Assembly (NCBI GenBank): GCA_973895155.1
Contig: OZ316893.1
Coordinates: 24,603,520 to 24,667,519 of the forward strand
Reading direction: 5' to 3'
From: Marsupella aquatica
Lineage: Eukaryota; Plantae; Marchantiophyta
DNA: 64,000 bases
Made by a program: the position numbers and the translations under genes. A model generated the notes under the pieces. It was not told where the DNA came from, searched no databases, and saw nothing but the letters and a program-made list of their open reading frames with translations. Positions 35,315-63,415 of this stretch are shown one piece after another (the stretch's first letter is position 1; every line of letters begins with the position of its first letter).

Positions 35315-35489
35315 ACAATAGCTTTTTTGCGATGGCGAAAGATATCTCAAGTATTGACAATGGTTTTGCAGGCTAGGTTCTGATTAACTTTGATAGAAGC
35401 TCTTGCTTCCTTTGAGCCTACCATTTTGGAGTGACGAACTATTAAAGCTTTAGCTTTCTTTGAGACTTACATTTTCAACCGTGAGTTCA

Positions 35490-37047: not shown

Positions 37048-37089
37048 GAGAATACAGTCTACACTCCATTTTGAGACAAACTGGGAGGA

Positions 37090-37277
37090 TGAATCCGGAG
37101 TGGGATACCGCGTATCCCACTTCGCATTCACTTTGGCCAAATTCTTGTTTGAGAAGGAAAACGCACTGAGATTTGGGGATGAATACGAAGTGGGATACCC
37201 TGTATCCCACTTCGCATTCAACATGCAAATCTTCAAAGTTTTTCATATTTCTCAGCGCAACTAAGGGGTTGAATACT
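37090..37277. repeat. Periodic palindrome array 2 (2 copies plus a third cut by the CACTA insertion)
   Basis: Hairpins at 37090-37130 and 37180-37220 (90-bp period). The next unit starts TGAATAC at 37270, again 90 bp later, and is interrupted by CACTA at 37278. Confidence 0.88.
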
Positions 37278-38132
37278 CACTAGAAGAATCCGAGGTGAAC
37301 TGAGACCGCAATATATGACTCATTTTGGCTCATGTGACTTCATTGTGACTCAACGTGACTTGACCCACGCTGTGACCCTTGGAGTTGCAAAAGTTGAGAC
37401 CAAAAAATGGAAGTCACTATTGATACTGGGCTTTGCAACTTGCTTGATACCCATTTGTGACTGATCTGTGACTTTATTGTGGAGTCTAGCCTTGTTTCGA
37501 CGTGACTGCAATATGACTTCAGCGAGTCACATCGTAAGTCACATACATGACTTACCCGCATTCAACAACGACTAGCGTGTGACTATTTAGTGTCACAGGA
37601 GAGACCAATGGAGACCCTGGCCCGCGTCACACAACAGAACCATTTGGGACTCTATATACTCATGTTTATAACTAATAAGGTTCACATGCAAGTTATAACC
37701 ATGACTAATGAACACAGAGGGACAGTTCATAAGGAGAGAGAGCACTCGACATTACAATACATAGAAACCTGATGTTCTAACTTTAGAAATATAACACATT
37801 GAATACAAGAAATGAACATAGCATGAATGACATCCACATGAAACAAAGCATCATATAAGCAGATCCTACATAAAACATTCATAAGAATTAAACACAATCA
37901 CAATCTTGCTAAAAAATGAAGATCATTTGAATTCCAATGGAATAGTTTACAATGTGATCAATGTAATTTAGACAAAACAGGAACTCATAATTGATGACTG
38001 TAGGATGAGATAACTGAAAGCACATGCATGATACTATGAATCTCCAAGAGGACATGATTCTTGTACTGCTTCTTGACATCTAAAATCTACATAACATGAC
38101 TCACACTACAAACAAATAATGGCATGACATTG

Positions 38133-41860: not shown

Positions 41861-41994
41861 TCATCTATGGTCACCCCGTATAACACAATGCAACCACAAT
41901 CACCAGGCATCCATCCATACATCTGTGTTGCTTCAGAATTACTTTATTACACATCCTTCCCCTCACTAATGTCCATGCAAACAATTCACATTAC

Positions 41995-44900: not shown

Positions 44901-45721
44901 AATCCAAGATTAGATATGCATCTTTTTGCCTCGTACATGTTCTTGGGCAAAATATTACCATTTGGTAGCACAGTTGTTCGCAAGAATGCCAACAACTCAG
45001 AAACCAAAACGTTGGGGACATTGTGGTTGCCGCAAATGTTCAGGAACATGATGACAAATCCCAGTTTAGAACATTTGCTACCGGGGTACAAAGACTTCCT
45101 GCCTTCCTGTATTTGCAGGGGAGAGCCAAACATCCCATCATGCCCAGGGGTTTCCTGCCCTATCTCAAACTCATCAAGAGGCTCTTCGACAGGGGGCACA
45201 CTTGCATCTGCAGCCGTATCCTCTTCATTGTCCAGCCCATCATGAAATGCATCCAAGTCTTGGAAGATGTCTCTCACCATCTCTTCCACATGAATTCCTT
45301 CGTCACGTGATGCTGCCTGAGCACCATCCCGTTGGAGAGCTGACAACCCACAGAGACCAGCTACAACATTTTCAAATGCACCAGGCAGAACCTCACTTGC
45401 CCGTCTTGCAGCATTGGCAGCATCAAATTCTAACCTCCACTCCTCGTCGGAAGAATCTTCCTCTGCAAGATCATTCCAAACTCGATGTCGTGGATCTCTT
45501 CCATGAACCGCGATATGCCGCCAAACCTCATTCAGACCCCTGGTACGGGATCCTTGGCAGATTGCACAAGGACATCTCATCCTACTGGCTCCTGAAAGTC
45601 TGGTTCGTAACCTTTCACGCTGCCAAAGCTTATTATCATGGCATGATATCCTTGTGGGATGATGCAAAGGCAGTGCCTGTGCCCTGGGCTGGGTCTGGGG
45701 AGGGTGGTGACCAGGGTGCAT
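41995..45721 (-). pseudogene. tnpD: CACTA TnpD (Tnp2) transposase with two premature stops
   Basis: CPCAIC, IHACPDGHVLF, RNVRLGLSLDGVNPF, YNLPPW, DVMHIEKN, MKSHDCH, FFDVMTHL, WLYPLERYM, EPFVFPSQVEQAFF. Intron donor at 43897; in-frame TAG at 43391-43393 and TGA at 42562-42564. Confidence 0.95.
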
Positions 45722-46328
45722 TGTAACAGGCTGGGAGCTCTGCAGTCATGGACAGCAGTGAACAAGGATGCCTAATGGTGGTATTTGTGTTCCATATATC
45801 CCTGACTGTATCTGCCAAAAGAGTTAACATAACGTGTACTAAATTCTCACAAACCCTAAACCACCCCAAAAGAAAAAAACAGGTTCGCAAGTAGTGTACC
45901 TATTGTCAAGTGAATGACACAAAATTCCTAAATGTTGGAGGGTGTCACCACCTCCTCCGCTGTCCTCAAATGTACCGCCTCTGCATGTACGTTTACAGTG
46001 ACACCCCCAGGCAGCAGGAAACAACAATCCGCCAACAGTAAAATAAGCCCAACTGCCACCAACCATAACAAGGTACATTAGTTCAAAGATCACATTTATT
46101 TCAATGATCTGATTTATACAAAAAAACTTGTGTCCAAACTGATGCTACTACTCCTCACTCTGATTCAGAATCGCTAATGACCCATTCCTCACTTGTTGTC
46201 TCATAGTCCTCTCTGTAAGGATCCTGACCCTTCCGTGGCCAGGCCTCAAAAAGATCATAGTCCATTGGGTTTTGACGCTTCCCAGCTGCTACTGATTCCA
46301 CAAGCCAAGCATATGAAACCACAAACAC

Positions 46329-49300
46329 TGTCAAACACTTGCCAAGGAGCTTAAGCGGCTTTTCTCCCCAAAAGACTACCTAATACCTGCTCCATGTCAT
46401 ACCAGGGTCACAAAGGATTGACAAAACTTCTGAAGTGTGCTTACAATGTCCAATCACTCCATACATAAGTAGTTTCAACTCTCCACTTCTAGAGAGGTAG
46501 TCCCCTTGACTACTTTTGTACTCACCCCTTCCCCTCTCCTCTACTCCAAGGATCAGCAAGGGGGATCTCCGCTCCAAGCTGTCACCTTAGAGTAGATTCT
46601 CACACAAACACCCAAGAACCCAAAGTACTTTCCTCTTCAAGCTTAAGTCTCCTCAAGACCCTCAAAGTAGTGTTACCCCTCAACCTTGCCCCCCTGGCCT
46701 TGGTTTGGGTCCACACATCCCCTTTGAGCCCTAGAGAAGGCTCCTCTATCTAAGGACTCTTCCTCTTGTTCTTACTTCTTGTTAACACCACACACCAAGC
46801 AAAGTACTTTCCACCCTCAAGCTATAATCCTCTCTAAGTCTCAAAGTAATGCTATACCTTAACCTTGCCTCCTTGGCCTTGGTTTTGTACTAGCACATCC
46901 CCTTCAAGCTTAGACCAAGATTATACCATAGCATGGACTCTTCTCTTGCTCTCATATACTTCAAATGCACTCACACTTAATGGTCACAATGAAGATTGGT
47001 AAGTCTCCTTTTATTGCATCACCTTTACAACAAAAGTTCACTACACATTCTCCACACTAAGCATGGACCACCTCTCCTTTCTCAAGCTTAGCCCTACCTT
47101 GGCAAGGTAGAGATTTCACTTAAGAGATGAGACTCCCGGTCCCTAACAAATGAAAACTTCCTCCTTATATACTATCTCCTTCCACATCACACCAAGCTTG
47201 ACCTGGGGTCCAACTATACCTCCCCCAAGTCCTCCTAACACACAAAGTCCAACTCTATAGTTCATAGCCCACCCTACTACTTGCTATTTTGCCTCCTTCC
47301 AAGCCCTGGAATATGCCACACATGAGTGGTATGCTTTGACTTCCAAACCTACTCCCACTTATGGTCCTCCTCACCAGCTTACCAACCCACTTGAAAGCTC
47401 GCAAAAAGAGTGAGTGAGTCTCAAGTTGTGCCTAGTCAAAGTTGGCCTTATTTTACTTGTAACCCCTTTACTACCCTAAGTAAACTACCCCCTATATTTA
47501 CTTTTCTTAACTTGATGGCCTTACACCTTTGGCCAAAGGTAAGTACCCTTCTCTAGAGCCTAACTCAAGTGGTATGGGTGCAAGAAAGGTCAGCCCCTAA
47601 ATCTGGTATTCATTCCCCTATGCCGACTTTGGTTTGCAAGTTGTCGGGACTCCCTCGTGGCCTCGGTTAAAAATATATTTGAGTGATTACTTTTCTGGGG
47701 TTCCACCTTCACCAGGGGGTGCCTTATCTTCCCCTAACTCAGCACAAAAAAATTTGGGCCCCAACGGATACCTCTAGCCAAAGTTATGCCCATTCTCCCA
47801 AGGCCTGTTTTTGGTGTAAAGCGGGTGTAAGCGGCGGCCCGATTACACTTACCTTATATGCCCCTTATGGGGATTCCACGTGTCATGAGGGGAGAGCACT
47901 CTCATTATACTCATGTTTCTTATGAAGAAATTGTAAGGACAGCAATGTTTGCAGCCATTTCTCTCTCGTGAATTCAATCTAAAACCACAGCATTCTCTAT
48001 TGGATTCTTTCTTGTGCAGCAGTCCAGCTGATCAGCCGCCAGCCCCTCAATTTCACAGCCACCATAGCTCACAGCCAGCCTAGTCAATTTCGCAGCTAGC
48101 CCACCTCTTCAATTTTGCCGCTAGCAACACAGTCAATTTCGCAGCTAGCAGCACAGTCAATTTCGCAGCTAGCAGCACAGTCACATCAGCGCATTTACAG
48201 CACAACAACAGCAGATTTGAAGCACAGCAGCAGCAACCATAGCTTGATTCCTTCTCAGTCAAGCAGGTCTCTCTTCTCAATTTCGTAGCTGCCCACCTTT
48301 GCAATTTCGCAGCTAGCAGCAGCATCATTCAATTCAGCAGCATCAAGGCAGCAGCCAGCCAATTCTCATGAGCATCTCGTGCCTGATTAGTAGGAGCACC
48401 TCTAATCTAGTGTGCAGCTGTCATAGCAGCAAGCAGCCTTCCCAATTCAAAGCCAGCAGCGATCCTAATTTGCAGCCATAGCTCTTTTCCTTCTCAGCAG
48501 CCATAGCTTCTTCAATCAGCAACAGCCCTTGCTTCTTCAATCAGCAGCAGCCATTTCAATTCAGCCGCCCTTCCTTCAATTCAGCCGCCCTTGTGCTCAA
48601 TTGATTCCTCAAGTAATCATGCAGCACCTTTGGACAGCCTCCCGGTGCTTGACGTCCTCACCAGCCTCGTGCTTGCTCCTCCTTGCCTCGTGCTCGCTCC
48701 TCCTTGCCTCGTGCTCGCCGCGTGATCGTCGCCCACGCGGTTTACACTTAGAAAAAAATACATTTTTTTTTTGGAAAAACAGCATTTTGGGGCGATTTTG
48801 GACCCCCCTCCAAAACTCACACATAAGTCCAAAAGGACTTCTGAGTAGCTCCACTGATTCTATGGACATAGGACTATGTCCGGGTTTACTAAGATATAAA
48901 CAAAACCCTATAACAACTTTTCTAAAATTAGGCAAAGAGGGTCAAGTCTTTATGTCTTCCAAAATTCTTCTCAACTTTGAGATGCTCCCAAAAAGTAACC
49001 AAGTGTGACAAAGTTGTCCCACAAGTTTCTAGGGATAGAGGGGACCATACTTAACCCACTTCCAAACTTGGAACCCCTACATTTACCCATCAGCTATTTT
49101 TCCCGGGACCCGCTATTTGGTAACTTTGATTTTTGCCAAAATACTTATAACTCCTAGGTTAAGACCCCACTTGACTTCATACTTTTTCAGGGTTCCCTAG
49201 GGACCTCCCAGCACCCATGGGAGAAATATCAGCCAAAAATAAGATGTCCGGTGTCGGGTCATTTTTCGGTCCCGACTTAGTCGCCTATTATAACTAAGGA

Positions 49301-49516
49301 CGGACTAGTTTCCTGCCCCTCCTATAGTAACTTGCTTACCCCTAGATAACTTTGCATAACTAAATTCCCTCTTACCTCTACTAAGCTTCCCTTCTTACTT
49401 AAGTGCCCTAAACCTAGCTACTCTGATAGCACTAAAACTTTTTCCCTAACTATTTCCTCTTCTAAACGAAAGAATGTCATGTTTCTCTACACTAGCTGAC
49501 ACTGAGCCATCCCACA
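46329..49516 (-). repeat. 3' LTR (3188 bp)
   Basis: Direct repeat of 55680-58867 at a constant 9351-bp offset. Contains an internal ~180-bp diverged duplication (~46620-46950) and CAATTTCGCAGCTAGC repeats (~48050-48320). Confidence 0.97.
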
Positions 49517-49556
49517 TAGCCCCCTACTTAAGTGTGCAGCGTCCCCGCAAACACAC

Positions 49557-52500
49557 TTATTCCTGATTAAAGTACCTTTTCAACCTATCATGATGCACTC
49601 TAGTAGGGAACACCTCTCCTTCAAGAGTAGCAAGCTGAATTGACCCATTAGCATAAACCTGGTGAACAACATAAGGACCCAACCACCGAGTATGCAACTT
49701 GCCTGGAAAATGAGCATACCTACTGTCATAGAGTAATACCAGTTGTCCAACAAGTAAAGAAGTTGGCTTCTTCAACTTCTTGTCATGATGTTGCTTCACT
49801 TGAGCTTGCTTCTTCTTCACTTGCTTGCTTGCCTCTTCCCGGATTTCCTCCAACTCCTCCAGCTGGTAAGCTCTCTCCATTAAACTCTGGTCAGCCTCCA
49901 TTCTCTCCTCCACACTTACCCTCAAAGTAGGCACTTCAAACTCAACAGGTACAAGGGAGTGTTGTCCAAATACTAGGTAGAAAGGACTATGGCCGGTTGT
50001 GGTCTTGAAAGCAAGGTTGTAGGAGTACACAGCTGAGTATAATTTGTCATCCCAATCAGTCTTGTGTGCCGCCACGGTTTTGTTCAAGATCTTGCCAATG
50101 ATGCCATTAGCTCTCTCCGTTAATCCATTGGCCTTGGGGTGATAGGGGGTGGTCTTCCTATGCTTAATCAAGTAATGGTTAGTGAGCTCCTCCACAACTT
50201 CATTCAAGAAGTGAGTCCCCCTATCACTAACCAGCTCTAGAGGTGGCCCAAATCTGGTAAAAATCTGTTGATACATGAACCTTGCTACTGTGAGAGCATT
50301 ATCCTTGCTGGTTGGTCTTGCCTCTACCCACTTAGTAGCATAATCAGTTGCAAGAAGGATGTATCGATTCCTTCTAGACCTGGTCACAGGAGTGATGGGA
50401 CCTATGAAATCTATACCCCACTTCTCAAAAGGTGCAAGAGGTAAGATGGTGGTAAGAGGGTGATGCCTTGAGTGAGCTGGCTTACCTGTCCTTTGGCAAG
50501 GGTCACATCCCCTCACAAAAAGACTTACATCCTTATGAAGTGTTGGCCACCAATACCCTGCATCAAGAATTTTCCTTGCTGTTGTTGCACTTGCATAATG
50601 GCCACCAGCCTCCTCCTCATGCATAGCTCTCATCACAATGGAGATTTCCTTCTTCTCCAAACACCTCCTTAGTCTCCCATCAACTCCTTCCTTGTGAAGG
50701 ACACCCTTCACCAATAAGTAAGGTCTGATTTTTCTCAGGAAAACAGCAGCCTCCTCTTGGTTCAAATCTCTTGGTAGCCGGGTTGTGAGAAGAAATTGGA
50801 TGATATCCAAATACCATGTATCTCCTCCACTTCCCACATGAAAGAGGTCTTCATCTGGAAACTGATCATCCACCTCCTTCAAGTCCTCTTCTCCTTCAAT
50901 CCTTGAGAAGAAGTCTGCATTCCCATGCTTCTTACCAGGCCTGACCCTCACCTCATAATCAAACTCTTGGAGCAACAAGATCCACCTTGCCACTCTACCA
51001 GTTACATCAGGTTTATTCACCATATACTTGAGAGCATTGTGATCAGTATGAAAGACCACCTTATAGCCCAACAAGTAGTGCCTAAACTTCTTACAAGAGT
51101 AGATGATTCCTAGAGCTTCTCTATCGGTTGGTGAGTAATTCTTTTCAGCTGGTGCCAATAGTCTACTTGCAAAGTAGATAGGGTGATCCCTATTCTGGTC
51201 ATCAAGTTGACTAAGCACCACACCAATACAAAAGCCAGACACATCCACATACACATGAAATTCTCTACTCCAATCTGGTGCTATCAAGATAGGGGCTTCA
51301 ACCAACCTGTTCTTCAACTCCTGAAAACTTGCTAGCCTCTCAACTGAGGGTTCAACCTCAGCCCCCTTCTTAAGCATGCTGGTTAGGGGTAAAGCTACTT
51401 TAGCAAAGTCCTTAATGAACCTTCTATAGTAGTTTAAACATCCCAAGAATCCCCTCAACTCTGTCACTGAAGTTGGAAACTTGACAGCCATCCAAACAGC
51501 AACCTTCTCTTGGTCCACTTCTATGCCCTTCTTGGATACCTTGTGGCCAAGTAGTATCCCTTCTTCCACACCAAAGAAGCACTTCCCTGGGTGAAGCTTC
51601 AAACCAACTTCCCTACATCTTTGGAAGGTCATCCTCAAATGTTCAACATGGTCCTTCCCCCTTCCAAAAACAGCAAAGTCATCTATGAATACTTCCAAGA
51701 ACTTTCTCAAGTAGTCATGAAAGATATTCATCATCAACCTTTGGAACATACCAGGGGCATTACAAAGACCAAAAGGCATCCTCCGAAAGGCATAAATCCC
51801 CCACTCAGTAGTAAAGGCTGTCTTCAACTGGTCCTCCTTCCTTATCCAAATCTGGTTGTAACCTGAGTACCCATCTAGGAAGCTATACACTTCCCAACCA
51901 GCTACTAAATCAAGTACCATATCAGTAAATGGAATGGGATAGTGGTCCTTCTTAGTGGCCTCATTGAGTTTCCTAAAGTCTTGGCAAACTCGGATCTTAG
52001 GCTTACCATCCAAGCCTGGTTTCTTTGGTACTATGACAATTGGAGAAACCCACTCACTATTCAACACAGGATAGATGAAACCTGCTTCCAGCAATTTGTC
52101 TATCTCTTCCTTCACCATCAAGGAGTACTTGGGATTCATCCGATATTGCCTTTGTCTCACAGGTGAAGCTCCTAGCATCAAGTCGATTCTATGCTCACCA
52201 AGTTCAGGGTTTACACCAGTAAGATCCAAGTGACTCCAAGCAAACACATCCACATATTCACCTAGCAAATCTTGGATAGTTTTCTCTTCACCTGATCCCA
52301 GGGCATTTCCCAAGTTGAAGGTCTTGTCTTGCTGGACAGAGATGGTTCTGTACTGCTCAGCTCGAATCACCTCCATCTTGTTCCTCATTGTGGAGTCAAA
52401 AGTGCCCTCAAGTTGTGCCAACCTCATGCCTCCATAGACGGGTGCATTTTCAGCACTTAACTCCTCCTTCTCCTTGCTTGAATGCTGGTCTTCCTGAGTC

Positions 52501-55500
52501 TCATCCTCCTCTGAGTTTGCAGCCTTCAATTGGTCCTCTAGCTCCTTTATCTTGAGCTTTAACAAGGCTAAGTGCTTAGCCTTTAACCTCTGGTCATTAC
52601 TCCTTGTCTTGATCTCAACTTGGGCAGCACCCTTGCTGGTCTGATCAACCTCCTGAGCCATTGTGATAGTGTCTTCTTGGTTGCTCTCCTTGGCTGAGGT
52701 CTCAGCCTGCTTCACCTCCTCGAGACTGGTCACTTCACTGAGACTGGGCAGAGGTGAATGGCTGGTAAGAGCCTCCTGCTCTTGCTCCTCTCCAAACACT
52801 TCTTCTTCAGTCCATTGGCTCACCATGTTCAACATGTATACCTCATCCTCATCAGATTCAGATTTGGTACTCAACTCATCGGAAAGTTCAGAATCATATT
52901 CATCCAACTCATCAGTAGTCTCTCCTTGATGCTTGTCATGACCCCATGAAACTGAAGTGGCTGGTTTGCCAAACCTAAACTCCTTCTTGCCCCAATCAGA
53001 CACTACTTTGGCTCCATATAGCCAAGGCCTCCCAATCAAGATTGGGTAAGTAGATGGCCTTGCTGGTCTCATCACCAAGTAATTCAACAAGAACTCCTGC
53101 CCCCCAATGAGAGTAGGTACTTGAGTAAGTGTCCCCACCGGTAGCACTCTTGCTCCATTTGCTAGCCTCATTGTCCTTGCTGTTGGCTGAAGTTTCTTGA
53201 AACCTAGTTGTTGGGCAGTAGCCTCAATCATGATATTCACACCTGAGCCTCCATCAACTGGTACATACGAGAGTACACACCCATTTACTTGAACATCAAT
53301 CTCAGGTGCTCCAAGGTCTTCACAAACCATCATCACATCAGCTGGGGTACCAACCTTTGGAAGCTTCCTTCTTCTCCTTCCTACCAACATCTCCTTCAGT
53401 TGCCTCCTATACAAAGGGTTGTCTTTGATCAGCTGCCCCACTGTAGCAGTAACCAAACAATCTTTCACATCCTTCTTGATGTCATAAGAGGGTACCTTGC
53501 TGGTCTCTTTCTTCTCTTCCACCTCAGCTTTTTCCTTCAAAGCTTTAGCAACCTTCAGGTCTTTGTTGATGGCCTCTTGATGCTCCTTAGCCTCCATCTC
53601 CTCTAGTTGCCTCTTGACTTCCTCATTCACCTTGGGATAGAAGAGCTTCGGATGGTCTCTCTTGTAGTCACTATCTTCAGCTGGTGGGACTTGAACTTCT
53701 GCTCCAACTTCAACTTCGATTGGTGACTCCGTTGAGTGCTCCTTTCTCTCCTTCCTCTTCTTCCTCTCTTCCACTCTTTCCTTCTTTCTTGTGGACCTGG
53801 TAGACACCTTGTAACACACAGCTTCCTCCTCAGGTGTCTCCATTCCTGGTAGATCTGGCTGGTTCTCCCCACCAGCAACTTGTGTCACTCCATCTTTGGC
53901 CTCCTCTTGCCACTCCATACTCAAGAAGTTCACTGTGGCTTCACCGGGAGCCTTGGCAACCGCTGGTGGTGGTGCTTCTATCCTTCCTATCATCATCTTG
54001 GCAGCAGATCCAATAGGACAGTTGGCTGTGGTATGACCCTCCCTTTTGCACACAGCACAAAGAGGATAGGGAGCTCCTTGTCCCTGCCTCCTTGGTTCGG
54101 GGCAACTGTTGGAATAGTGCCCTGGTTTTTGACAGTTCCAGCAGATCACCACGGTAGTTCTTGCCACTCCCCCAGGTCCTTGAGGTCCCATTTGATCCAC
54201 CATCCTTGGTTGAAGACCAGGCATCAGTTGAGGTGCCATGGGTGGAGCTGGTCTTCCTTGCAAAGTTCTTGGGCCTCCTGAAATCTGGTACACCATCTCC
54301 GGGGCTTCTTCATAGAAGTAGTCCACCACTTCACTTGCTTGATAAACATCGTTGGACTCTTCATTGACATACTGAACTTGATTCCTCCAACCTTGACACT
54401 CTTGAGGTGTATGGCCAAAACTCTTGCACTTGACACACCATACATGGGCTCTATTCACCGGCACTTTTCTCCTATCAGGTTGCACACCAGCAAAGTGAAC
54501 TGATAGGGCCTTGAGTTGGTTGGTGATCTCACTCATCTTGTTATCCATCACCTTCTTCTCCTTGGTTGCTGGTGTAGAACCTTCCACCAAGTTGAAGGTT
54601 GCAGATTTGTGGTGCTTACCACCTGGCTTCTTCTTGCTGGCTCTCCTCTTCTGGTCGCTTTTTCTCTTTGCCTTCTTCTTCTTCTTCTTCTTCTTCTTCT
54701 CGGAGTCCTCCTCAGAATCAGATTCTGAATCAGAACTGGAACTACTCTCCTCAGATTCCGACTCAGAAGTATCCTCAACTGAACTACTTGATTCACTTGA
54801 GCTAGAAGAAGAATCACTATAAGCAAATCGCTTCTTCTTTCTCCTACTCTTGGAACTAGAGATCTCAGCACTCCTATAAGACTGAGCCGCCTCAATGGCC
54901 TCATCCAACGTATTAGGGTGAGATTGCCTTACTGAGACACCCATCTTCTTGGGTAGGCTTGCCACAAACCAAGCCAACAACATGGAGTCTACTGGTCTGG
55001 GGTCAAGCTTGGTAGCTAACCTTTGAAACCTTTGCAGAAACCTCCTTACTGACTCCTTGGATCCCATTCTGATCTCTCCCATCTTGATCAGAGCTTCCGA
55101 TTCTTCTCCCACCTTCCTAAACTCCTGCAAGAATGCTAGCTTGAAGGCATCCCAATCATTCTTGATGGCATTTGATAGGCTATTGAACCAAGGTCTTGCT
55201 TCTCCTCTCAAGACCCCCGCCAAAGTGGTCAACTTAATATCAAACTCTCCATTGGCTTGGGCTGTCCCAATGAAGTCCTCCAACCAAGCATCAGGATCCT
55301 CCTTGGGCTTGCCATGGAATGTCTTGTACTGAAATCTTGCTCTTTGAGTCACCACCATGGCTGCTTCTTGATCTTCACTTGTGTTGGTAGTGGAAGAAGA
55401 TGTATCACTCCACCCTACACCAGGTTCCGCTTCAGCTTGCAAATGAATGTCCACCCAATCTGGTTGCTCCAACTGGTCACCAAAGTTGAAACTAAGAGAG

Positions 55501-55535
55501 GCTTCTTTTAGTGCTTGACTCCTTGTAGTGGGCAT
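49557..55535 (-). CDS. gag-pol: Gag-Pol polyprotein (gag, 3 CCHC knuckles, protease, RT, RNase H, integrase)
   Basis: Single uninterrupted ORF (open from 55625; first ATG at 55535). Motifs EDPDAWL, CVKC/CWNC/CAVC knuckles, VDGGSGVN, FLDGYSGYNQ, FIDDF, YVDVSG, GHY..CDPC, IDFIGP, SDRGTHF, GLTERAN. No chromodomain. Confidence 0.97.
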   Translation of the reverse strand: MPTTRSQALKEASLSFNFGDQLEQPDWVDIHLQAEAEPGVGWSDTSSSTTNTSEDQEAAMVVTQRARFQYKTFHGKPKEDPDAWLEDFIGTAQANGEFDIKLTTLAGVLRGEARPWFNSLSNAIKNDWDAFKLAFLQEFRKVGEESEALIKMGEIRMGSKESVRRFLQRFQRLATKLDPRPVDSMLLAWFVASLPKKMGVSVRQSHPNTLDEAIEAAQSYRSAEISSSKSRRKKKRFAYSDSSSSSSESSSSVEDTSESESEESSSSSDSESDSEEDSEKKKKKKKKKAKRKSDQKRRASKKKPGGKHHKSATFNLVEGSTPATKEKKVMDNKMSEITNQLKALSVHFAGVQPDRRKVPVNRAHVWCVKCKSFGHTPQECQGWRNQVQYVNEESNDVYQASEVVDYFYEEAPEMVYQISGGPRTLQGRPAPPMAPQLMPGLQPRMVDQMGPQGPGGVARTTVVICWNCQKPGHYSNSCPEPRRQGQGAPYPLCAVCKREGHTTANCPIGSAAKMMIGRIEAPPPAVAKAPGEATVNFLSMEWQEEAKDGVTQVAGGENQPDLPGMETPEEEAVCYKVSTRSTRKKERVEERKKRKERKEHSTESPIEVEVGAEVQVPPAEDSDYKRDHPKLFYPKVNEEVKRQLEEMEAKEHQEAINKDLKVAKALKEKAEVEEKKETSKVPSYDIKKDVKDCLVTATVGQLIKDNPLYRRQLKEMLVGRRRRKLPKVGTPADVMMVCEDLGAPEIDVQVNGCVLSYVPVDGGSGVNIMIEATAQQLGFKKLQPTARTMRLANGARVLPVGTLTQVPTLIGGQEFLLNYLVMRPARPSTYPILIGRPWLYGAKVVSDWGKKEFRFGKPATSVSWGHDKHQGETTDELDEYDSELSDELSTKSESDEDEVYMLNMVSQWTEEEVFGEEQEQEALTSHSPLPSLSEVTSLEEVKQAETSAKESNQEDTITMAQEVDQTSKGAAQVEIKTRSNDQRLKAKHLALLKLKIKELEDQLKAANSEEDETQEDQHSSKEKEELSAENAPVYGGMRLAQLEGTFDSTMRNKMEVIRAEQYRTISVQQDKTFNLGNALGSGEEKTIQDLLGEYVDVFAWSHLDLTGVNPELGEHRIDLMLGASPVRQRQYRMNPKYSLMVKEEIDKLLEAGFIYPVLNSEWVSPIVIVPKKPGLDGKPKIRVCQDFRKLNEATKKDHYPIPFTDMVLDLVAGWEVYSFLDGYSGYNQIWIRKEDQLKTAFTTEWGIYAFRRMPFGLCNAPGMFQRLMMNIFHDYLRKFLEVFIDDFAVFGRGKDHVEHLRMTFQRCREVGLKLHPGKCFFGVEEGILLGHKVSKKGIEVDQEKVAVWMAVKFPTSVTELRGFLGCLNYYRRFIKDFAKVALPLTSMLKKGAEVEPSVERLASFQELKNRLVEAPILIAPDWSREFHVYVDVSGFCIGVVLSQLDDQNRDHPIYFASRLLAPAEKNYSPTDREALGIIYSCKKFRHYLLGYKVVFHTDHNALKYMVNKPDVTGRVARWILLLQEFDYEVRVRPGKKHGNADFFSRIEGEEDLKEVDDQFPDEDLFHVGSGGDTWYLDIIQFLLTTRLPRDLNQEEAAVFLRKIRPYLLVKGVLHKEGVDGRLRRCLEKKEISIVMRAMHEEEAGGHYASATTARKILDAGYWWPTLHKDVSLFVRGCDPCQRTGKPAHSRHHPLTTILPLAPFEKWGIDFIGPITPVTRSRRNRYILLATDYATKWVEARPTSKDNALTVARFMYQQIFTRFGPPLELVSDRGTHFLNEVVEELTNHYLIKHRKTTPYHPKANGLTERANGIIGKILNKTVAAHKTDWDDKLYSAVYSYNLAFKTTTGHSPFYLVFGQHSLVPVEFEVPTLRVSVEERMEADQSLMERAYQLEELEEIREEASKQVKKKQAQVKQHHDKKLKKPTSLLVGQLVLLYDSRYAHFPGKLHTRWLGPYVVHQVYANGSIQLATLEGEVFPTRVHHDRLKRYFNQE

Positions 55536-55640
55536 GCCACTCACAATCACCTTCTTATCTCCCTTCTTCTCTTGAACAGCAAACCTGCAAACACACCTCC
55601 AAGTCTTGTGGCTCCACTCCAACAAAAACTGTAAAGAGTT

Positions 55641-55659
55641 GTCCCCGGCAGCGGCGCCA
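55641..55659 (-). promoter_or_regulatory. Primer binding site (tRNA-Asp-type TGGCGCCGCTGCCGGGGAC)
   Basis: Classic Athila-type PBS, located 20 nt inside the 5' LTR end. Confidence 0.85.
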
Positions 55660-55679
55660 AAAACAAGGGTGGGACTCTA

Positions 55680-58600
55680 TGTCAAACACTTGCCAAGGAG
55701 CTTAAGCGGCTTTTCTCCCCAAAAGACTACCTAATACCTGCTCCATGTCATACCAGGGTCACAAAGGATTGACAAAACTTCTGAAGTGTGCTTACAATGT
55801 CCAATCACTCCATACATAAGTAGTTTCAACTCTCCACTTCTAGAGAGGTAGTCCCCTTGACTACTTTTGTACTCACCCCTTCCCCTCTCCTCTACTCCAA
55901 GGATCAGCAAGGGGGATCTCCGCTCCAAGCTGTCACCTTAGAGTAGATTCTCACACAAACACCCAAGAACCCAAAGTACTTTCCTCTTCAAGCTTAAGTC
56001 TCCTCAAGACCCTCAAAGTAGTGTTACCCCTCAACCTTGCCCCCCTGGCCTTGGTTTGGGTCCACACATCCCCTTTGAGCCCTAGAGAAGGCTCCTCTAT
56101 CTAAGGACTCTTCCTCTTGTTCTTACTTCTTGTTAACACCACACACCAAGCAAAGTACTTTCCACCCTCAAGCTATAATCCTCTCTAAGTCTCAAAGTAA
56201 TGCTATACCTTAACCTTGCCTCCTTGGCCTTGGTTTTGTACTAGCACATCCCCTTCAAGCTTAGACCAAGATTATACCATAGCATGGACTCTTCTCTTGC
56301 TCTCATATACTTCAAATGCACTCACACTTAATGGTCACAATGAAGATTGGTAAGTCTCCTTTTATTGCATCACCTTTACAACAAAAGTTCACTACACATT
56401 CTCCACACTAAGCATGGACCACCTCTCCTTTCTCAAGCTTAGCCCTACCTTGGCAAGGTAGAGATTTCACTTAAGAGATGAGACTCCCGGTCCCTAACAA
56501 ATGAAAACTTCCTCCTTATATACTATCTCCTTCCACATCACACCAAGCTTGACCTGGGGTCCAACTATACCTCCCCCAAGTCCTCCTAACACACAAAGTC
56601 CAACTCTATAGTTCATAGCCCACCCTACTACTTGCTATTTTGCCTCCTTCCAAGCCCTGGAATATGCCACACATGAGTGGTATGCTTTGACTTCCAAACC
56701 TACTCCCACTTATGGTCCTCCTCACCAGCTTACCAACCCACTTGAAAGCTCGCAAAAAGAGTGAGTGAGTCTCAAGTTGTGCCTAGTCAAAGTTGGCCTT
56801 ATTTTACTTGTAACCCCTTTACTACCCTAAGTAAACTACCCCCTATATTTACTTTTCTTAACTTGATGGCCTTACACCTTTGGCCAAAGGTAAGTACCCT
56901 TCTCTAGAGCCTAACTCAAGTGGTATGGGTGCAAGAAAGGTCAGCCCCTAAATCTGGTATTCATTCCCCTATGCCGACTTTGGTTTGCAAGTTGTCGGGA
57001 CTCCCTCGTGGCCTCGGTTAAAAATATATTTGAGTGATTACTTTTCTGGGGTTCCACCTTCACCAGGGGGTGCCTTATCTTCCCCTAACTCAGCACAAAA
57101 AAATTTGGGCCCCAACGGATACCTCTAGCCAAAGTTATGCCCATTCTCCCAAGGCCTGTTTTTGGTGTAAAGCGGGTGTAAGCGGCGGCCCGATTACACT
57201 TACCTTATATGCCCCTTATGGGGATTCCACGTGTCATGAGGGGAGAGCACTCTCATTATACTCATGTTTCTTATGAAGAAATTGTAAGGACAGCAATGTT
57301 TGCAGCCATTTCTCTCTCGTGAATTCAATCTAAAACCACAGCATTCTCTATTGGATTCTTTCTTGTGCAGCAGTCCAGCTGATCAGCCGCCAGCCCCTCA
57401 ATTTCACAGCCACCATAGCTCACAGCCAGCCTAGTCAATTTCGCAGCTAGCCCACCTCTTCAATTTTGCCGCTAGCAACACAGTCAATTTCGCAGCTAGC
57501 AGCACAGTCAATTTCGCAGCTAGCAGCACAGTCACATCAGCGCATTTACAGCACAACAACAGCAGATTTGAAGCACAGCAGCAGCAACCATAGCTTGATT
57601 CCTTCTCAGTCAAGCAGGTCTCTCTTCTCAATTTCGTAGCTGCCCACCTTTGCAATTTCGCAGCTAGCAGCAGCATCATTCAATTCAGCAGCATCAAGGC
57701 AGCAGCCAGCCAATTCTCATGAGCATCTCGTGCCTGATTAGTAGGAGCACCTCTAATCTAGTGTGCAGCTGTCATAGCAGCAAGCAGCCTTCCCAATTCA
57801 AAGCCAGCAGCGATCCTAATTTGCAGCCATAGCTCTTTTCCTTCTCAGCAGCCATAGCTTCTTCAATCAGCAACAGCCCTTGCTTCTTCAATCAGCAGCA
57901 GCCATTTCAATTCAGCCGCCCTTCCTTCAATTCAGCCGCCCTTGTGCTCAATTGATTCCTCAAGTAATCATGCAGCACCTTTGGACAGCCTCCCGGTGCT
58001 TGACGTCCTCACCAGCCTCGTGCTTGCTCCTCCTTGCCTCGTGCTCGCTCCTCCTTGCCTCGTGCTCGCCGCGTGATCGTCGCCCACGCGGTTTACACTT
58101 AGAAAAAAATACATTTTTTTTTTGGAAAAACAGCATTTTGGGGCGATTTTGGACCCCCCTCCAAAACTCACACATAAGTCCAAAAGGACTTCTGAGTAGC
58201 TCCACTGATTCTATGGACATAGGACTATGTCCGGGTTTACTAAGATATAAACAAAACCCTATAACAACTTTTCTAAAATTAGGCAAAGAGGGTCAAGTCT
58301 TTATGTCTTCCAAAATTCTTCTCAACTTTGAGATGCTCCCAAAAAGTAACCAAGTGTGACAAAGTTGTCCCACAAGTTTCTAGGGATAGAGGGGACCATA
58401 CTTAACCCACTTCCAAACTTGGAACCCCTACATTTACCCATCAGCTATTTTTCCCGGGACCCGCTATTTGGTAACTTTGATTTTTGCCAAAATACTTATA
58501 ACTCCTAGGTTAAGACCCCACTTGACTTCATACTTTTTCAGGGTTCCCTAGGGACCTCCCAGCACCCATGGGAGAAATATCAGCCAAAAATAAGATGTCC

Positions 58601-58867
58601 GGTGTCGGGTCATTTTTCGGTCCCGACTTAGTCGCCTATTATAACTAAGGACGGACTAGTTTCCTGCCCCTCCTATAGTAACTTGCTTACCCCTAGATAA
58701 CTTTGCATAACTAAATTCCCTCTTACCTCTACTAAGCTTCCCTTCTTACTTAAGTGCCCTAAACCTAGCTACTCTGATAGCACTAAAACTTTTTCCCTAA
58801 CTATTTCCTCTTCTAAACGAAAGAATGTCATGTTTCTCTACACTAGCTGACACTGAGCCATCCCACA
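55680..58867 (-). repeat. 5' LTR (3188 bp)
   Basis: Copy of 46329-49516; all six-frame ORF translations in the two LTRs are identical. Confidence 0.97.
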
Positions 58868-60163
58868 AACACATTATGGGACATGACATAAAAGCGAATG
58901 TCTCCCTTCCCAAACTTGCGGCAGGCTTTGGGATATGACTTAGTAATGACATGAGTGGTGTCCTCTGTTATATTCTCCTCCACTATCCCACCTAGGTCAA
59001 GCACTGTGGACTTGTACACTTTGCACTTAACCTCTCCAATTCCCGCCTCCACAAATACCATGCTCAGCCCTTTCAGAATGGGGGTTGGTTGCTTCGTCTC
59101 CTCAGCCAACATACTCTTCAGCCTTGTAGAGCTCTGTCCTTTGTTGAGTACAGGTCCATATTGGAGATCAGCAAGCCGTGCCTTTGCTTCCCAGACTTCT
59201 TGTTCAGCCCAAGCTGATGCAGTAGCTTCTTCATCCTCCCACAACTCATATTGCTCAGTATCCTGTACAATCTTATGTGCTATGGAATCTGTGATCCAAG
59301 AGGCCTCAACTACTTTTAGGCCTTGCTTAGTAATTGCAGAATTCATGTAGGACCATGACCACTTCTTTATCACTGATAGCCATGTCCCTGCAACAACATG
59401 TGTAGTCTCTGGAGTGATGTCCTGAACTACAGTGCCATGGAGCTCAGAGAATCGTTTCTATACAGTTGGCCAATGCACTTTGGTCAACCCATGCTGGCCA
59501 TGGACCAAAATCGCTCTGACCCCTGTAAACACTGCTGGGTGGTCACATTTTCTACGTTTACCAGGCTCCATGTACACACACCCTACGTGATGACAGTGAA
59601 TTTTGGAAGAATGGGTTCACCTGACAATACAAGGACAACAAAATTCCTGCTTTTTGAGTTGATCTGGCCCACTGGTGCTCAGGTCCGATTTTGATAGGTA
59701 CAAGGGATATGTGAACAATACGTACTAGGCACCTGCACGGATGCAGGACATTGTTTGAATATATACTACAAAATCCATATCCGTGGTGAAATGAAGTGCA
59801 ACCAACTTGTCATGGCACATACATATTTTGTTGTAAAGGAGGATACATTCAATGACAAACTTATAGGGCAATTTGATTAATTGCATGCCTGATAATTTAT
59901 ACGCTTACAACTTAGAAGTCCTGTTTTAATTTAGCAGTCTGATGAAAGTGTTTATGAAAATGACCACTCAGCCTAAATACTTCCAAGAAGGCTTGTAAGG
60001 ATAAGTTTGTATAGGCATGTACCCAGCCACTGACGCCAGAGCACAAGATAAGTGCTGCCTATATAAACTCGCCTACCCAACTCCTTTTCAAAATTGGAAT
60101 CTCTGCAATCTCAAAAAATAGTACATCCACATCAGGTGCACTGTGCATGTACAATGTTCAGCT

Positions 60164-60844
60164 TCACAGCCAAGATATGTGATCTCTCACAGGAGTGCGC
60201 GAGGTAGGATCAATGGCATGGCGATGACAATAAAATATCCATCGATCAACACCATGTGCAGAGTGATCATAGATTTCTCTGTCACAAGCATAACCCTCTG
60301 CTTGATGATCTTTCAGGCAATGATAGTGCCACATAGTGGGACACCTAGCACAGTGGACTATGTCAGTCCAGTAGTCATCATCATGCTCACCACATGCCTT
60401 GCACCTATGAAGTGGGCAAGCTATGGCATGAGCAGGCAAACACTCAAAACAGAAAAATCTCACACAAAAACGGTCTGGACATTTCCTAACATTTGCTGCA
60501 GCATCAACAGAGCCCTCATAGGACCCCAACTTCCCACACTGTGCACACTTAGCCTGCTTCTCCAAACAATCAGTGCACATCCAGTCTCCCTGGTGTGTTG
60601 ACGGGAGGCCCACCCCTGGACAGTTGTTTTCTGCAGCAAGGTCAGACTCCGGGTTGAGGTGGAAATGCCTCATGCAAGGGCCCTCACAAATGACCAGGCC
60701 CCCACCATCGTCACAAATGGCACAACAATGAGCTGCCTTCTGGAAAATCTGACTTGCAGAGAAGTTAGTAGCATCTGCCCCAAGTACACCTGTGTTTCTC
60801 ACCTCTGTCACACGCTTTTTGGCTTGAATTTTAGGCCGTGCCAT
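60164..60844 (-). CDS. Stand-alone EDM2-type triple-PHD-finger protein
   Basis: Intact 226-aa ORF. CAICDDGGGLVICEGPCMRHFH..WMCTDC..CAQCGKLGS..ACPLHRCKAC..CARCPTMWHYHCL..IFYCHRHAIDP..TPVRDHI follows the recalled EDM2 PHD cassette (CAICDNGG..CEGSCLRSFH..CPLHKC..CRRCPKSYHRKCL..IYCQEHEID..TPVRDH). Confidence 0.85.
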   Translation of the reverse strand: MARPKIQAKKRVTEVRNTGVLGADATNFSASQIFQKAAHCCAICDDGGGLVICEGPCMRHFHLNPESDLAAENNCPGVGLPSTHQGDWMCTDCLEKQAKCAQCGKLGSYEGSVDAAANVRKCPDRFCVRFFCFECLPAHAIACPLHRCKACGEHDDDYWTDIVHCARCPTMWHYHCLKDHQAEGYACDREIYDHSAHGVDRWIFYCHRHAIDPTSRTPVRDHISWL

Positions 60845-60855
60845 GCCTGCGCATG

Positions 60856-60999
60856 AGATAGACTCTACAATTTAGCAGACTGCACAGAAAGTAAAATATA
60901 TTTAGCATTTAAGGTACAAAGGCATTTAGATAGACTCTACAATTTAGCAGACTGCACAGAAAGTAAAATATATTTAGCATTTAAGGTACAAAGGCATTT
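60856..60999. repeat. Perfect 72-bp tandem duplication
   Basis: AGATAGACTC...GGCATTT at 60856-60927 and 60928-60999. Confidence 0.95.
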
Positions 61000-61614
61000 G
61001 CTACTGCAATGAATTGGAATGGCCACACAAGGATGCAGAGCACACATACTTTTGGTATGTTGAACCCACACACAAAACTGATCCCCTAATACAATTTCTC
61101 CACCAACACCTCAATTTTAATTGTGGCTATGATTCACCAAAGGAGATCTGCAACAACATTTCATGCATTTGAATCACATACAATAGTCGTGACATGTAAA
61201 ACAGGCATTCTTCGAAGAGGATTGGTATGAAGCAGTGTCATAAGGGTTGAAATTTATACATCCTAAATAGGTTATGATAGTGGCTGAGACAAATAAGTGA
61301 GGCATAAATCATTTTGCATATTATCACATGGCCCATACATTCATTCAACGTTGCAATGTTCACCAGGTTAAAGCAGTCATGAAAGCAGTCTTTCAATAGA
61401 GACTTTTATGCGAGTTTGCTAGCCTCTTAAATTAGGATATTTTGCTTAGTGTAGGCATAATAGGATATAAGTTATGTACTGTTGACCCTAAACCCTGGAC
61501 CCAAAATTGCTCATACATCAAAATTTTAAGTAAATATCCTCTGTGTTGAAGTCAGAGTGTTAAGCTATAGGTCAATGGTATCTGGTCTGTGCATGCGGTG
61601 TGACAAGTGGTCCT

Positions 61615-62064
61615 CTAGAGCATGTGATCCAAACATGTGTAGACACCAAAGTCACCGGTGGTGGGGTCTGGGAGGGCAGGACAAGTGACATCACCAGGCA
61701 CACTGCAGGATGGCGAGTGGTTCCAGATGATACATTGTGCTCTGTGCAAAAATCGGCATCCAAGAGAACGGTCATCCAATTCTGGGCCAGAAGCCCTACA
61801 GGCAGGACAGTCATATTGGCAACTGTGTACACACCCTTGGCACCTAATTTGTGGCGGGTCATGTACAAGAGACACAAATACCAAGGATGTCGGGAAGGGT
61901 ACTGAAGCAGGTAGAGGCCGGCTGTAGTTGTTCCTGGAAACAACAGGGTACTCAAAGTACCATGCAGACTGGGCTGGAAGGATCCCAAGTCTGACATACT
62001 CAAGGCGCAACATCTCTGCCTTGCGTGCAAGTCGCACATGTTCAGCGTTGCGGGTCCTCACCAT
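61615..62064 (-). CDS. Cys-rich orphan protein (putative zinc finger)
   Basis: 149-aa ATG ORF with CQGC..CQYDCPAC..GCRFLHRAQC..HSPSC..C..C; same strand as the neighbouring genes. Confidence 0.45.
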   Translation of the reverse strand: MVRTRNAEHVRLARKAEMLRLEYVRLGILPAQSAWYFEYPVVSRNNYSRPLPASVPFPTSLVFVSLVHDPPQIRCQGCVHSCQYDCPACRASGPELDDRSLGCRFLHRAQCIIWNHSPSCSVPGDVTCPALPDPTTGDFGVYTCLDHML

Positions 62065-63072
62065 AAGTGTTGCTTTCGTTGTGATGTCCTCTGTTCACGT
62101 CCTTTGATGAGCAAGGTGAGCAGGAGGTCGACTTGCCTCGCCAACAGCAACCACCTAAACTAATCAGTTCCCACTCATTGTCTTGGTTCCAACTACAGGT
62201 CATAGTATACACATAGCATGAAACGTGCATAGTACATATTTGATTCTGAGTTTATGAGTTTCCTAAGACAAAGAGCTTGGTGATAAACCCATATTCTCGA
62301 CGGACATGTATATCAATCATATTAAACTCCTGTTTTTTCATCCAGAAAGACCGAAAGTCTCACCTTGCAGGTTGCAGCAGAGAGAAAATTCACTGGTTGT
62401 CGTGTTGTGCAAGTGAACCTCCACTGATGCCCCGGTGTAGCCCCTCAGATGCAGGTGACACTTACCAACTCCCAAGTTGCCTGGTCTAACAGAAAATGCT
62501 TATATCTTCAGAACTTTATAGAGCAAGTACATGATCACATACTTCTGGATCTATTCATATTTGGAACTCTTGCCAACTACAACTCCCATTATGCACAAGC
62601 TCACATCAACAGAGAAAGATACAGAATGCATACTTACTATGGCTCTAAGCACCTTCACTACCTTGTTGAACCCAGTCCTGAAGTCTTTTCAGCGTGTTTG
62701 TTGTGCTGTCTCCTTTGGCACCCAACACCTTAGTCCTTGATGTAACAGAATGCGATTTTACAAGTTAGATGCTTTGGAACCTTCTATGGTCTTAGCTGAA
62801 TTGATGTCATCGTAAGTGGTGAAAGACAAGGAAGACGAAAGCTGGTTGAAGAGCTGTGGACAACACACTAGCATGAAGTGCTTCAACCAATCCACTGCCA
62901 AACGGAACTCTTACACAGTCACATTCTTTTAGTAAACAAAAACTCAGTCAAACTTCAGAATCAAAGTACAGACTCTGAAGGACCAAAGGAGGATGTTGTG
63001 AGTTTCTCTGTTGTTTAATGTGTTACCCTTCTAGTTTCGAAGTTAGCAAATGCTGAATAATGTGTCTACCAG

Positions 63073-63415
63073 ATCTTCGAAAAGAAGCCCACCACAATTA
63101 AGAACTTCGGTATCTGGGTCCACGTATCAGAGTCGTACAGGTTATCACAACATGTACAAGGAATATTGTGATACCACAAGAAACGGAGCTGCAGAGCAGA
63201 TGTATGATGAGATGGCTTCTTGTCATAGAGTTCGGTTCCCTTGCATCCAGATCATGAAGACTACGACAGTCCCTGTCTCTCTGTGCAAGCGAGAAAGTAC
63301 CAAGCAGTTCCATGATTCAAAGATCAAGTTCCCCTTGACGTACTGCAAGATTCAACCTCCATTGCGAAAGCTAAAGAAGACTTACAAGGCCACCAAGCCC
63401 AACACAATTGTTTGA
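63073..63415 (+). pseudogene. RPL18A: 60S ribosomal protein L18a (eL20) last-exon fragment
   Basis: After a CAG acceptor: [16 protein letters not shown], then a frameshift, then [56 protein letters not shown]-terminal exons were not recognised. Confidence 0.9.

What the first reader, a model, noticed from the sequence alone, without database searches (positions are those of the whole stretch)
60164..60844. Free-standing EDM2 PHD cassette upstream of a transposase: possible anti-silencing factor or decoy
Seen: an intact 226-aa ORF made almost entirely of the triple atypical-PHD block, ending at the TPVRDH motif and lacking the other EDM2 domains. Known: Arabidopsis EDM2 PHDs recognise H3K9me2-containing marks, and the ASI1-AIPP1-EDM2 complex allows full-length transcription across intronic heterochromatin. 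Inference: a TE-borne copy could target integration, promote read-through of the methylated element, or compete with host EDM2. It is still open while neighbouring genes carry stops.
Basis: partly seen in the sequence, partly recalled or inferred. Interest (0 to 1): 0.8.

Follow-up and report, generated by a model that had tools for sequence, protein, structure and literature searches.

The report
Transposon-borne EDM2-type chromatin reader gene
A plant DNA transposon of the CACTA type carries its own small, long-conserved gene for a zinc-finger protein related to the plant chromatin reader EDM2, beside a BRCT-domain gene and its transposase, and this protein likely helps the element stay active on silenced chromatin.

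Summary
60844-60164 (-) is an intact 226-aa ORF: three atypical PHD fingers plus the EDM2-type RDH end, without EDM2's other domains. It is not a host exon. It lies in a high-copy CACTA element: Cys-rich ORF, PHD, twin-BRCT gene, TnpD, TnpA-like, and a CACTAG end at 37278. A recent 12.5-kb LTR retrotransposon splits this copy; public contigs show the empty site and similar depth across all these genes. The ORF belongs to a family of about 27 short proteins or fragments, one clade, 37-81% identical among the first 14 hits, sharing start, end and zinc ligands, and only about 32% identical to host EDM2-like proteins. So it is old and under purifying selection. That it is open while neighbours are broken is expected by chance. 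The family lost EDM2's acidic flank and gained an N-terminal R-x-K-x-x-A-x-K arm with histone H3 K4/K9-like spacing (12 of 27, against 1 of 125 others), so EDM2's H3K9me2 reading cannot be assumed. Best reading: a transposon accessory chromatin protein that counters silencing (function untested). No such CACTA gene turned up in ten literature searches. Transposase linkage is shown only for this element family.

The parts
60164..60844 (-). Stand-alone EDM2-type triple-PHD ORF, 226 aa; accessory gene of the CACTA element
60815..60841 (-). Conserved basic N-terminal arm (residues 2-10; family pattern [AS]-R-x-K-x-x-A-x-K), H3-tail-like spacing, or NLS / AT-hook-like
60847..60848 (-). AG acceptor-like site 2 nt before the ATG; similar sites precede the BRCT and TnpD starts (possible 5'-UTR intron, untested)
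60856..60999 (.). Exact 72-bp tandem duplication upstream of the ORF
61615..62064 (-). Candidate second accessory ORF, 149 aa from its first Met, Cys-rich, no Pfam or PDB match; summed depth of diverged contigs peaks here as over the PHD ORF
58868..59571 (-). Twin-BRCT ORF, 5' part; one stop private to this copy at 59458-59460
46155..46323 (-). Twin-BRCT ORF, 3' part, beyond the LTR insertion
   Evidence: empty-site loose ends
46329..58867 (-). Nested Ty3/gypsy LTR retrotransposon: 3188-bp LTRs with no mismatch, 5-bp TSD AACAC, open 2039-codon gag-pol frame (49557-55676)
41995..45721 (-). CACTA TnpD transposase (Transposase_21 E 1.8e-70, DUF4218, DUF4216); broken in this copy by two in-frame stops and a small deletion; start Met uncertain
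38133..40291 (-). TnpA-like exons (Transposase_24, E 1.6e-4, below cut-off)
37278..37630 (+). CACTA terminus (CACTAG...) with subterminal GTGAC/GTCAC repeats; contig depth steps up about tenfold or more here
63070..63415 (+). Broken plant-type RPL18A fragment with an intron-like stretch before it; probably captured cargo of the same element (inferred from depth)

Best explanation
The ORF is an old, conserved stand-alone gene inside a high-copy CACTA transposon, derived from an EDM2-like PHD block, and its product likely acts on chromatin to keep the element active against host silencing. Shown: the gene order Cys-rich ORF, PHD, twin BRCT, TnpD, TnpA-like, CACTA end; amplification as one unit; family-wide conservation of start, end and zinc ligands; loss of EDM2's other domains and acidic flank; gain of a basic N-terminal arm. 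Inferred: the protein is expressed and nuclear. Having no catalytic domain, it would work as an adaptor or competitor: the PHD block would occupy sites or partners used by host EDM2-like readers on the element's heterochromatin, and the arm would add a nuclear, DNA or histone-like contact. This would help the 12-kb-plus multi-gene element be transcribed and mobilised while repressive marks persist. The BRCT neighbour would serve the DNA-repair side of transposition (inferred from the domain only).
For: One unit: in run X1, near-identical contigs on both sides of the PHD ORF (59562-60110, 0 differences, depth 1641; 61242-61496, 3 differences, 1291), over BRCT (1799) and over TnpD/TnpA (1554-2020) share one depth class, against 22 for an exact contig at 30876-31414. 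Loose ends at 58863 (X3) and 46328 (X1) read across the empty LTR site. CACTAG end with 12 subterminal motifs in its 400-bp bin, next-highest bin 4, and a depth step in 3 of 4 runs. CpG observed/expected 0.25 in the ORF, like TnpD 0.37 and unlike the host-type ORF 0.99. Selection: 14 homologues at 37-81% identity; 11 positions of Cys/His invariant in 15 of 15 rows; 10 of 12 family proteins with a scored end stop within 9 residues of the RDH-W motif; against L001 pS 0.84 (saturated) and pN 0.36 over 212 codons. One clade, SH-aLRT 97-100 in three quick trees; best host identity about 32-34%. Context from papers: EDM2 binds H3K9me2 chromatin and suppresses proximal polyadenylation (PMC7529245, Introduction); TnpA activates Spm elements while H3K9 methylation persists (bioRxiv 10.64898/2026.08.24.746577, passages).
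Against: No function was measured. The far end of the element is not in the window, so the TIR pair and TSD are untested and the PHD gene's place inside the termini rests on depth and the empty-site junction. Linkage to a transposase is shown only for this element family: the one independent locus (L001, 1.5 kb) shows no neighbour, and the other homologues came without DNA. Contig depth is not a true copy number. Residues typical of H3-tail reading in host PHD1 (acidic flank, median charge -12 in 70 hosts against +4.5 in 26 family rows) are missing, so histone binding itself is uncertain. Several family members are visibly broken (L001, P0012-P0015). TnpA already supplies anti-silencing in Spm elements, so a second factor is not required.
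Confidence: 0.5

Rival explanations
1. Integration or excision targeting: the PHD protein tethers the TnpD/TnpA complex to a chosen chromatin state (for example heterochromatin as a safe site), with the BRCT protein recruiting repair factors; it does not affect silencing.
For: A reader plus a twin BRCT next to the transposase is the kit expected for chromatin-directed integration. This copy sits among methylated repeats. A retroelement in the same window carries a PHD after its integrase, and PHDs occur on a few MULE transposases (Table S6 rows of PMC12973397).
Against: The PHD is a separate protein with its own conserved stop, not fused to the transposase. No contact with TnpD was tested. One insertion site says nothing about preference.
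Confidence: 0.2
2. Histone-mimic decoy: the N-terminal arm imitates H3 residues 1-10 and draws H3K4/H3K9 writers or readers away from the element, or blocks the protein's own PHD groove.
For: In 22 of 26 family rows anchored on R-x-K, position 7 is Ala in 17 and position 9 Lys in 13. Summed identity to the recalled H3 decapeptide is 108, against 73 +/- 3.5 for shuffled N-termini and 66 +/- 3.7 for locally shuffled ones; 1.2% of templates that keep A-R-x-K but shuffle the rest score as high. R.K..A.[KR] occurs in 12 of 27 family proteins and 1 of 125 others.
Against: Noticed after the fact; rows are related, so the counts are not independent. Position 3 is Pro in 11 of 22 and positions 5-6 are aliphatic-Lys, which fit an AT-hook-like or NLS arm as well, and bryophyte host paralogues carry GRP motifs before their PHD (AT-hook label recalled). 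In several members the motif is not at the N-terminus. The arm is unstructured and undocked in the AlphaFold model (pLDDT under 50).
Confidence: 0.13
3. EDM2 substitute: the protein reads H3K9me2 as EDM2 does and recruits the host ASI1-AIPP1 machinery to suppress early polyadenylation inside the element.
For: The closest host relatives are EDM2 and EDM2-like proteins. The element is long and multi-genic with acceptor-like sites before three ORFs.
Against: No RFD, acidic or methyltransferase-like region. Altered PHD1 flank. Which EDM2 part binds AIPP1 could not be checked.
Confidence: 0.1
4. Passive cargo or a host gene: a captured fragment (Pack-CACTA style) or the last exon of a bryophyte PHD-last paralogue, with no role for the element.
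For: The element seems to carry a plainly broken RPL18A fragment. Host paralogues ending at RDH exist. An AG lies 2 nt before the ATG.
Against: Only about 32% identical to any host protein; saturated pS with kept zinc ligands; shared start Met; no host N-terminal exon anywhere in the window; TE-like depth and CpG loss.
Confidence: 0.07

Closest known systems
EDM2 and EDM2-like plant proteins (Arabidopsis EDM2; Selaginella XP_002976689; bryophyte PHD-last paralogues such as Calypogeia CAM6087769, Marchantia MARPO_0172s0021, Ceratodon KAG0504417)
   Same: Triple atypical PHD block and the C-terminal RDH motif; best host scores to the family profile.
   Different: About 32% identity; no RFD, acidic or methyltransferase-like region; basic instead of acidic flank; shortened second finger with a His-to-Cys ligand change; separate clade; sits in a transposon.
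NSD1/2/3 PHD1-3 block
   Same: Pfam NSD-type PHD families and the best solved-structure matches by profile (E 8e-11).
   Different: No SET, PWWP or C5HCH; lacks neither start nor stop of its own; RDH end is EDM2-type; lower score (42 against 78 bits).
TE-encoded anti-silencing factors: En/Spm TnpA and VANDAL VANC proteins
   Same: Non-catalytic accessory protein encoded beside a DNA transposase in a plant TIR element.
   Different: Those are sequence-specific DNA binders that cause DNA demethylation (passages; VANC from search listing and recall). This is a host-derived histone-reader fold, in addition to a TnpA-like gene.
Pack-CACTA captured gene fragments
   Same: Host-derived sequence inside a CACTA element; the RPL18A fragment fits this class.
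   Different: The PHD gene is whole, ancient, conserved at protein level across diverged copies and far from any host donor.
PHD-bearing transposases and integrases (MULE transposases with PHD; Ty3/gypsy integrase-PHD)
   Same: PHD finger used by a mobile element.
   Different: Those are single canonical PHDs fused to the catalytic protein; this is a separate triple EDM2-type protein in a CACTA.

Membership tests
CACTA (En/Spm) transposon | CACTA terminal motif with subterminal repeats | tested here: met
   CACTAG at 37278; 12 GTGAC/GTCAC in that 400-bp bin against at most 4 elsewhere; depth step
CACTA (En/Spm) transposon | Matching second TIR and 3-bp TSD | tested here: inconclusive
   No matching end found above 58868; it probably lies beyond the window
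CACTA (En/Spm) transposon | TnpD transposase (Transposase_21, DUF4218, DUF4216) | tested here: met
CACTA (En/Spm) transposon | TnpA-type gene (Transposase_24) | tested here: inconclusive
   E 1.6e-4, 22.3 bits against cut-off 28.7
EDM2 | Repeated atypical PHD fingers and RDH end | tested here: met
EDM2 | N-terminal RFD domain and acidic regions | tested here: not met
   Absent from the ORF and the window; flank is basic
EDM2 | C-terminal methyltransferase-like (ELP) region | tested here: not met
   ORF stops 4 residues after RDH; no host C-terminal match in the window
EDM2 | Nested within host EDM2 orthologues in a tree | tested here: inconclusive
   Best trees place the family outside all sampled hosts, but AU tests reject no donor group (p 0.16-0.35)
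EDM2 | Binds H3K9me2 chromatin; acts with ASI1/AIPP1 on polyadenylation | not testable with these tools
   needs peptide arrays, co-IP and 3'-end sequencing
NSD methyltransferases | SET, PWWP and C5HCH domains | tested here: not met
Pack-CACTA neutral cargo | Recent fragment close to a host gene, decaying neutrally | tested here: not met
   About 32% to hosts; pS 0.84 against pN 0.36; conserved start and stop
TE anti-silencing factors (TnpA, VANC) | Activates or demethylates cognate elements in trans | not testable with these tools
   needs expression in planta
Histone H3 mimics | H3-like motif with K4/K9 spacing | tested here: inconclusive
   Above shuffled controls but post hoc, and also fits an NLS or AT-hook-like arm
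Histone H3 mimics | Motif is modified or bound by histone writers or readers | not testable with these tools
   needs biochemistry

The most novel reading that the evidence does not exclude
This CACTA lineage evolved a three-part counter-defence kit: a reader taken from the EDM2 family and fused to a histone H3 tail mimic that acts as a decoy for H3K4/H3K9 writers and readers, a twin-BRCT adaptor for the repair machinery, and an unknown Cys-rich protein. It would be the first transposon-encoded histone mimic in plants that these searches could find.
Probability: 0.13. Interest if true: 0.9.

Novelty: new variant of a known kind. Interest (0 to 1): 0.66.

Why it matters
Known plant DNA-transposon anti-silencing proteins recognise DNA sequence. 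A conserved transposon gene built from a host heterochromatin reader would show that elements also fight at the histone level, and that gene flow runs from the host's silencing-related machinery into the transposon and is then kept by selection. The protein is small, non-catalytic and has many natural variants, so it is easy to test on peptide arrays and in planta, and it is a natural minimal EDM2 PHD module for asking what that unsolved block binds. It also flags accessory genes that annotation misses because they lie in masked repeats.

Tried and rejected
No whole genome is held, so no direct copy count or far terminus. No RNA holder listed. Complex prediction of the PHD block with its own N-terminal arm gave no verdict (score 0.13). 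The single-sequence BRCT model was too poor to search (pLDDT 41). A likeness of the second BRCT to DNA polymerase lambda is recalled only; the PDB search gave weak BRCA1 and LIG4 matches (E 0.01-0.03). Foldseek with the PHD model (pLDDT 65) gave only generic PHD/PZP matches, TM at most 0.26. Viral contigs: 0 of 27 pattern hits confirmed. Genome contigs: 1 of 21 (L002, bacterial, E 2e-4), a chance frame with stops, dropped. Metagenome contigs: 1 of 63 (L001), too short to show neighbours. The search for longer forms found no PHD-transposase or PHD-BRCT fusion among 2667 candidates, which is weak evidence. The Atlas did not complete. The careful tree did not finish; quick trees were used. In that tree 113 of 170 profile hits had a full region and 60 rows were used; 14 partial family proteins were left out. 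The donor lineage is unresolved. Two primary EDM2 papers were not held. Earlier findings of this scan: none.

Full report
Observation. The ORF is real: 60844 to 60164 on the minus strand, 226 aa, with an in-frame stop 9 codons upstream of the ATG. Pfam finds three NSD-type PHD modules in order, each weak. A profile of the ORF's family aligns the C-terminal C-x-x-H...P-x-RDH stretch with an RFD-bearing EDM2 homologue (78 bits) better than with NSD2 (42 bits, no RDH end). A search of 1.84 billion representatives returned, after the short family members, proteins that sources name EDM2 or PHD-type proteins of liverworts, a moss, Selaginella, a fern and seed plants. The EDM2-type label is therefore right. 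The host is a plant: the RPL18A fragment scores about 150 bits on the top seven PDB entries and under 80 on the rest (that these entries are plant ribosomes is recalled). A non-seed plant is my inference only.

Setting. On the minus strand the order is: Cys-rich candidate ORF (62064-61615), PHD ORF, twin-BRCT ORF (from 59571), TnpD (45.7-42.0 kb; Transposase_21 E 1.8e-70, DUF4218, DUF4216), TnpA-like exons (40.3-38.1 kb) and a CACTAG end at 37278 with dense subterminal repeats. A Ty3/gypsy element (46329-58867; LTRs of 3188 bp without a mismatch; TSD AACAC) has jumped into the BRCT gene of this copy. Public contigs read across the empty site from both sides (loose ends at 58863 in X3 and 46328 in X1), so BRCT normally runs on towards TnpD and the PHD stop is about 1.9 kb from TnpD. 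In run X1, near-identical contigs either side of the PHD ORF, over BRCT and over TnpD/TnpA have depths of 1291-2020, against 22 for an exact contig at 30876-31414; if that one is single copy this means roughly 60-90 copies, but the tool warns that depth is no copy number. Within the ORF (position 60201) about half of the depth of 3891 carries the window's letter and half belongs to a sibling subfamily (contig with 32 differences, depth 1978). Summed depth rises about tenfold or more at the CACTAG end in 3 of 4 runs. CpG is depleted in the ORF (0.25) as in TnpD (0.37) and unlike the host-type ORF at 23.4-25.0 kb (0.99). The element is at least 12.2 kb; its other end was not found in the window.

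Not an exon, not neutral cargo. Two searches gave 14 homologues of 166-304 aa at 37-81% identity, all from unannotated contigs. The profile search raised the family to about 27 proteins or fragments. They share a start near M-A-R-x-K, and 10 of the 12 with a scored end stop within 9 residues of the RDH-W motif. Eleven Cys/His positions are invariant in 15 of 15 aligned rows and most others are kept in 12-14. Against the one independent DNA locus, L001, pS is 0.84 (saturated) and pN 0.36 over 212 codons. The 13 members with a full region form one clade (SH-aLRT 97, 100, 97 in three quick trees) outside all sampled host proteins, to which the ORF is about 32-34% identical. None of 177 fetched proteins matches the window outside this ORF apart from an unrelated retroelement PHD. 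Against this reading: several homologues are broken, their surroundings are unknown, and L001 is too short to show a transposase.

The lesions in the neighbours are few and private (the BRCT stop reads as a sense codon in all 4 runs; one TnpD stop and a 5-nt deletion likewise), and a 226-codon gene would escape them by chance with probability 0.5-0.7 (and hand arithmetic). The end at RDH may be inherited: bryophyte paralogues P0024, P0028, P0049, P0057 and P0068 end there too. AU tests could not choose between these, canonical EDM2 or the moss protein as donor (p 0.34, 0.16, 0.35).

What changed in the protein. The 40 residues before PHD1 have a median net charge of -12 in 70 host proteins and +4.5 in 26 family rows, and the host F-D-x-x motif before the first Cys is replaced by S-P-H or A-A-H. 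Acidic residues there commonly hold the H3 tail in PHD fingers (established knowledge, recalled), so EDM2's specificity cannot be assumed. The family instead has an arm [AS]-R-x-K-x-x-A-x-K: in 22 anchored rows Ala7 is in 17 and Lys9 in 13, which matches the recalled H3 spacing above shuffled controls (108 against 73 +/- 3.5; 1.2% of templates with A-R-x-K fixed score as high). The pattern occurs in 12 of 27 family proteins and 1 of 125 others, the 280-aa Marchantia P0068. It was noticed post hoc, rows are related, and Pro3 with aliphatic-Lys at 5-6 fits an NLS or AT-hook-like arm equally. The arm is disordered in the AlphaFold model.

Mechanism. Shown: a conserved non-catalytic gene amplified with a CACTA transposase. 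Inferred: it is expressed, nuclear and chromatin-bound. I favour an anti-silencing adaptor or competitor (0.5) over integration targeting (0.2), histone-mimic decoy as the main action (0.13), a direct EDM2 substitute (0.1) and passive cargo (0.07). The reasons are that the closest host proteins act on H3K9me2-marked TE chromatin to allow full-length transcripts (PMC7529245, Introduction read; PMC5364540 and PMC10241880, passages), that Spm elements activated by TnpA keep H3K9 methylation (bioRxiv 10.64898/2026.08.24.746577, passages), and that the PHD is not fused to the transposase.

Novelty. Ten full-text searches (listings and abstract starts seen) showed no CACTA-encoded EDM2-type PHD or PHD-plus-BRCT element. 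In the supplementary domain table of a survey of 1007 plant genomes (PMC12973397, passages and matching rows of Table S6) all 5 PHD rows are MULE and CACTA has one BRCT singleton, but that survey was limited to elements of 2-12 kb and could miss this one. PMC13547354, PMC13317346, PMC11982613 and PMC9406493 were seen as passages only and had nothing on it; their supplements, bioRxiv supplements, subscription papers and Repbase were not seen. I file it as a new variant of a known kind, TE accessory chromatin proteins, not as a member of EDM2.

Verdict. Real, TE-borne, old and selected; function untested. Interest 0.66.

Noticed in passing
window 46329-58867: Intact Ty3/gypsy element with 3188-bp LTRs without a mismatch and an open 2039-codon gag-pol frame: a very recent insertion.
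   Followed up: yes
window 1-3000: A different Ty3/gypsy remnant whose integrase frame ends in a canonical PHD finger (Pfam E 7.7e-12).
   Followed up: partly
window 61615-62064: 149-aa Cys-rich ORF with no Pfam or PDB match; diverged copies pile up over it as over the PHD ORF, suggesting another conserved accessory gene.
   Followed up: partly
window 59571-58868 and 46323-46155: Twin-BRCT gene of about 290 codons between the PHD gene and TnpD; its family and host source were not searched.
   Followed up: partly
window 37278-46328 and 58868-62600, runs X1, X3, X5, X6: Near-identical pieces of the element (0-7 differences in 200-590 nt) occur in runs under four different organism codes; close relatives, mixed samples or horizontal transfer cannot be told apart here.
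   Followed up: no
P0068 (Marchantia MARPO_0172s0021, 280 aa): Short PHD-only protein that groups with liverwort host paralogues yet carries the same R-P-K-x-K-A-x-K arm; may be a host counterpart or show the ancestral state.
   Followed up: partly
window 63070-63415: Broken plant-type RPL18A fragment, antisense to the element's genes, preceded by a GT...AG stretch.
   Followed up: partly
window 34670-37232: Palindromic GTGGGATAC/GTATCCCAC repeats in two clusters flanking a 171-codon frame (36021-36536, no Pfam match, start reminiscent of an F-box, recalled); lower-copy repeat that the CACTA end abuts.
   Followed up: no
window 33245-34527, 32288-32795, 11705-12618: Tandem arrays of 577, 83 and 35 bp.
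   Followed up: no
window 23420-25012: 530-codon host-type ORF without CpG depletion and without Pfam match; looks like a trihelix-type transcription factor (recalled).
   Followed up: no
window 28547-29074: Frame matching Pfam Bles03 (E 6.4e-8).
   Followed up: no
window 26000-27030: Extremely AT-rich island (GC 9%).
   Followed up: no
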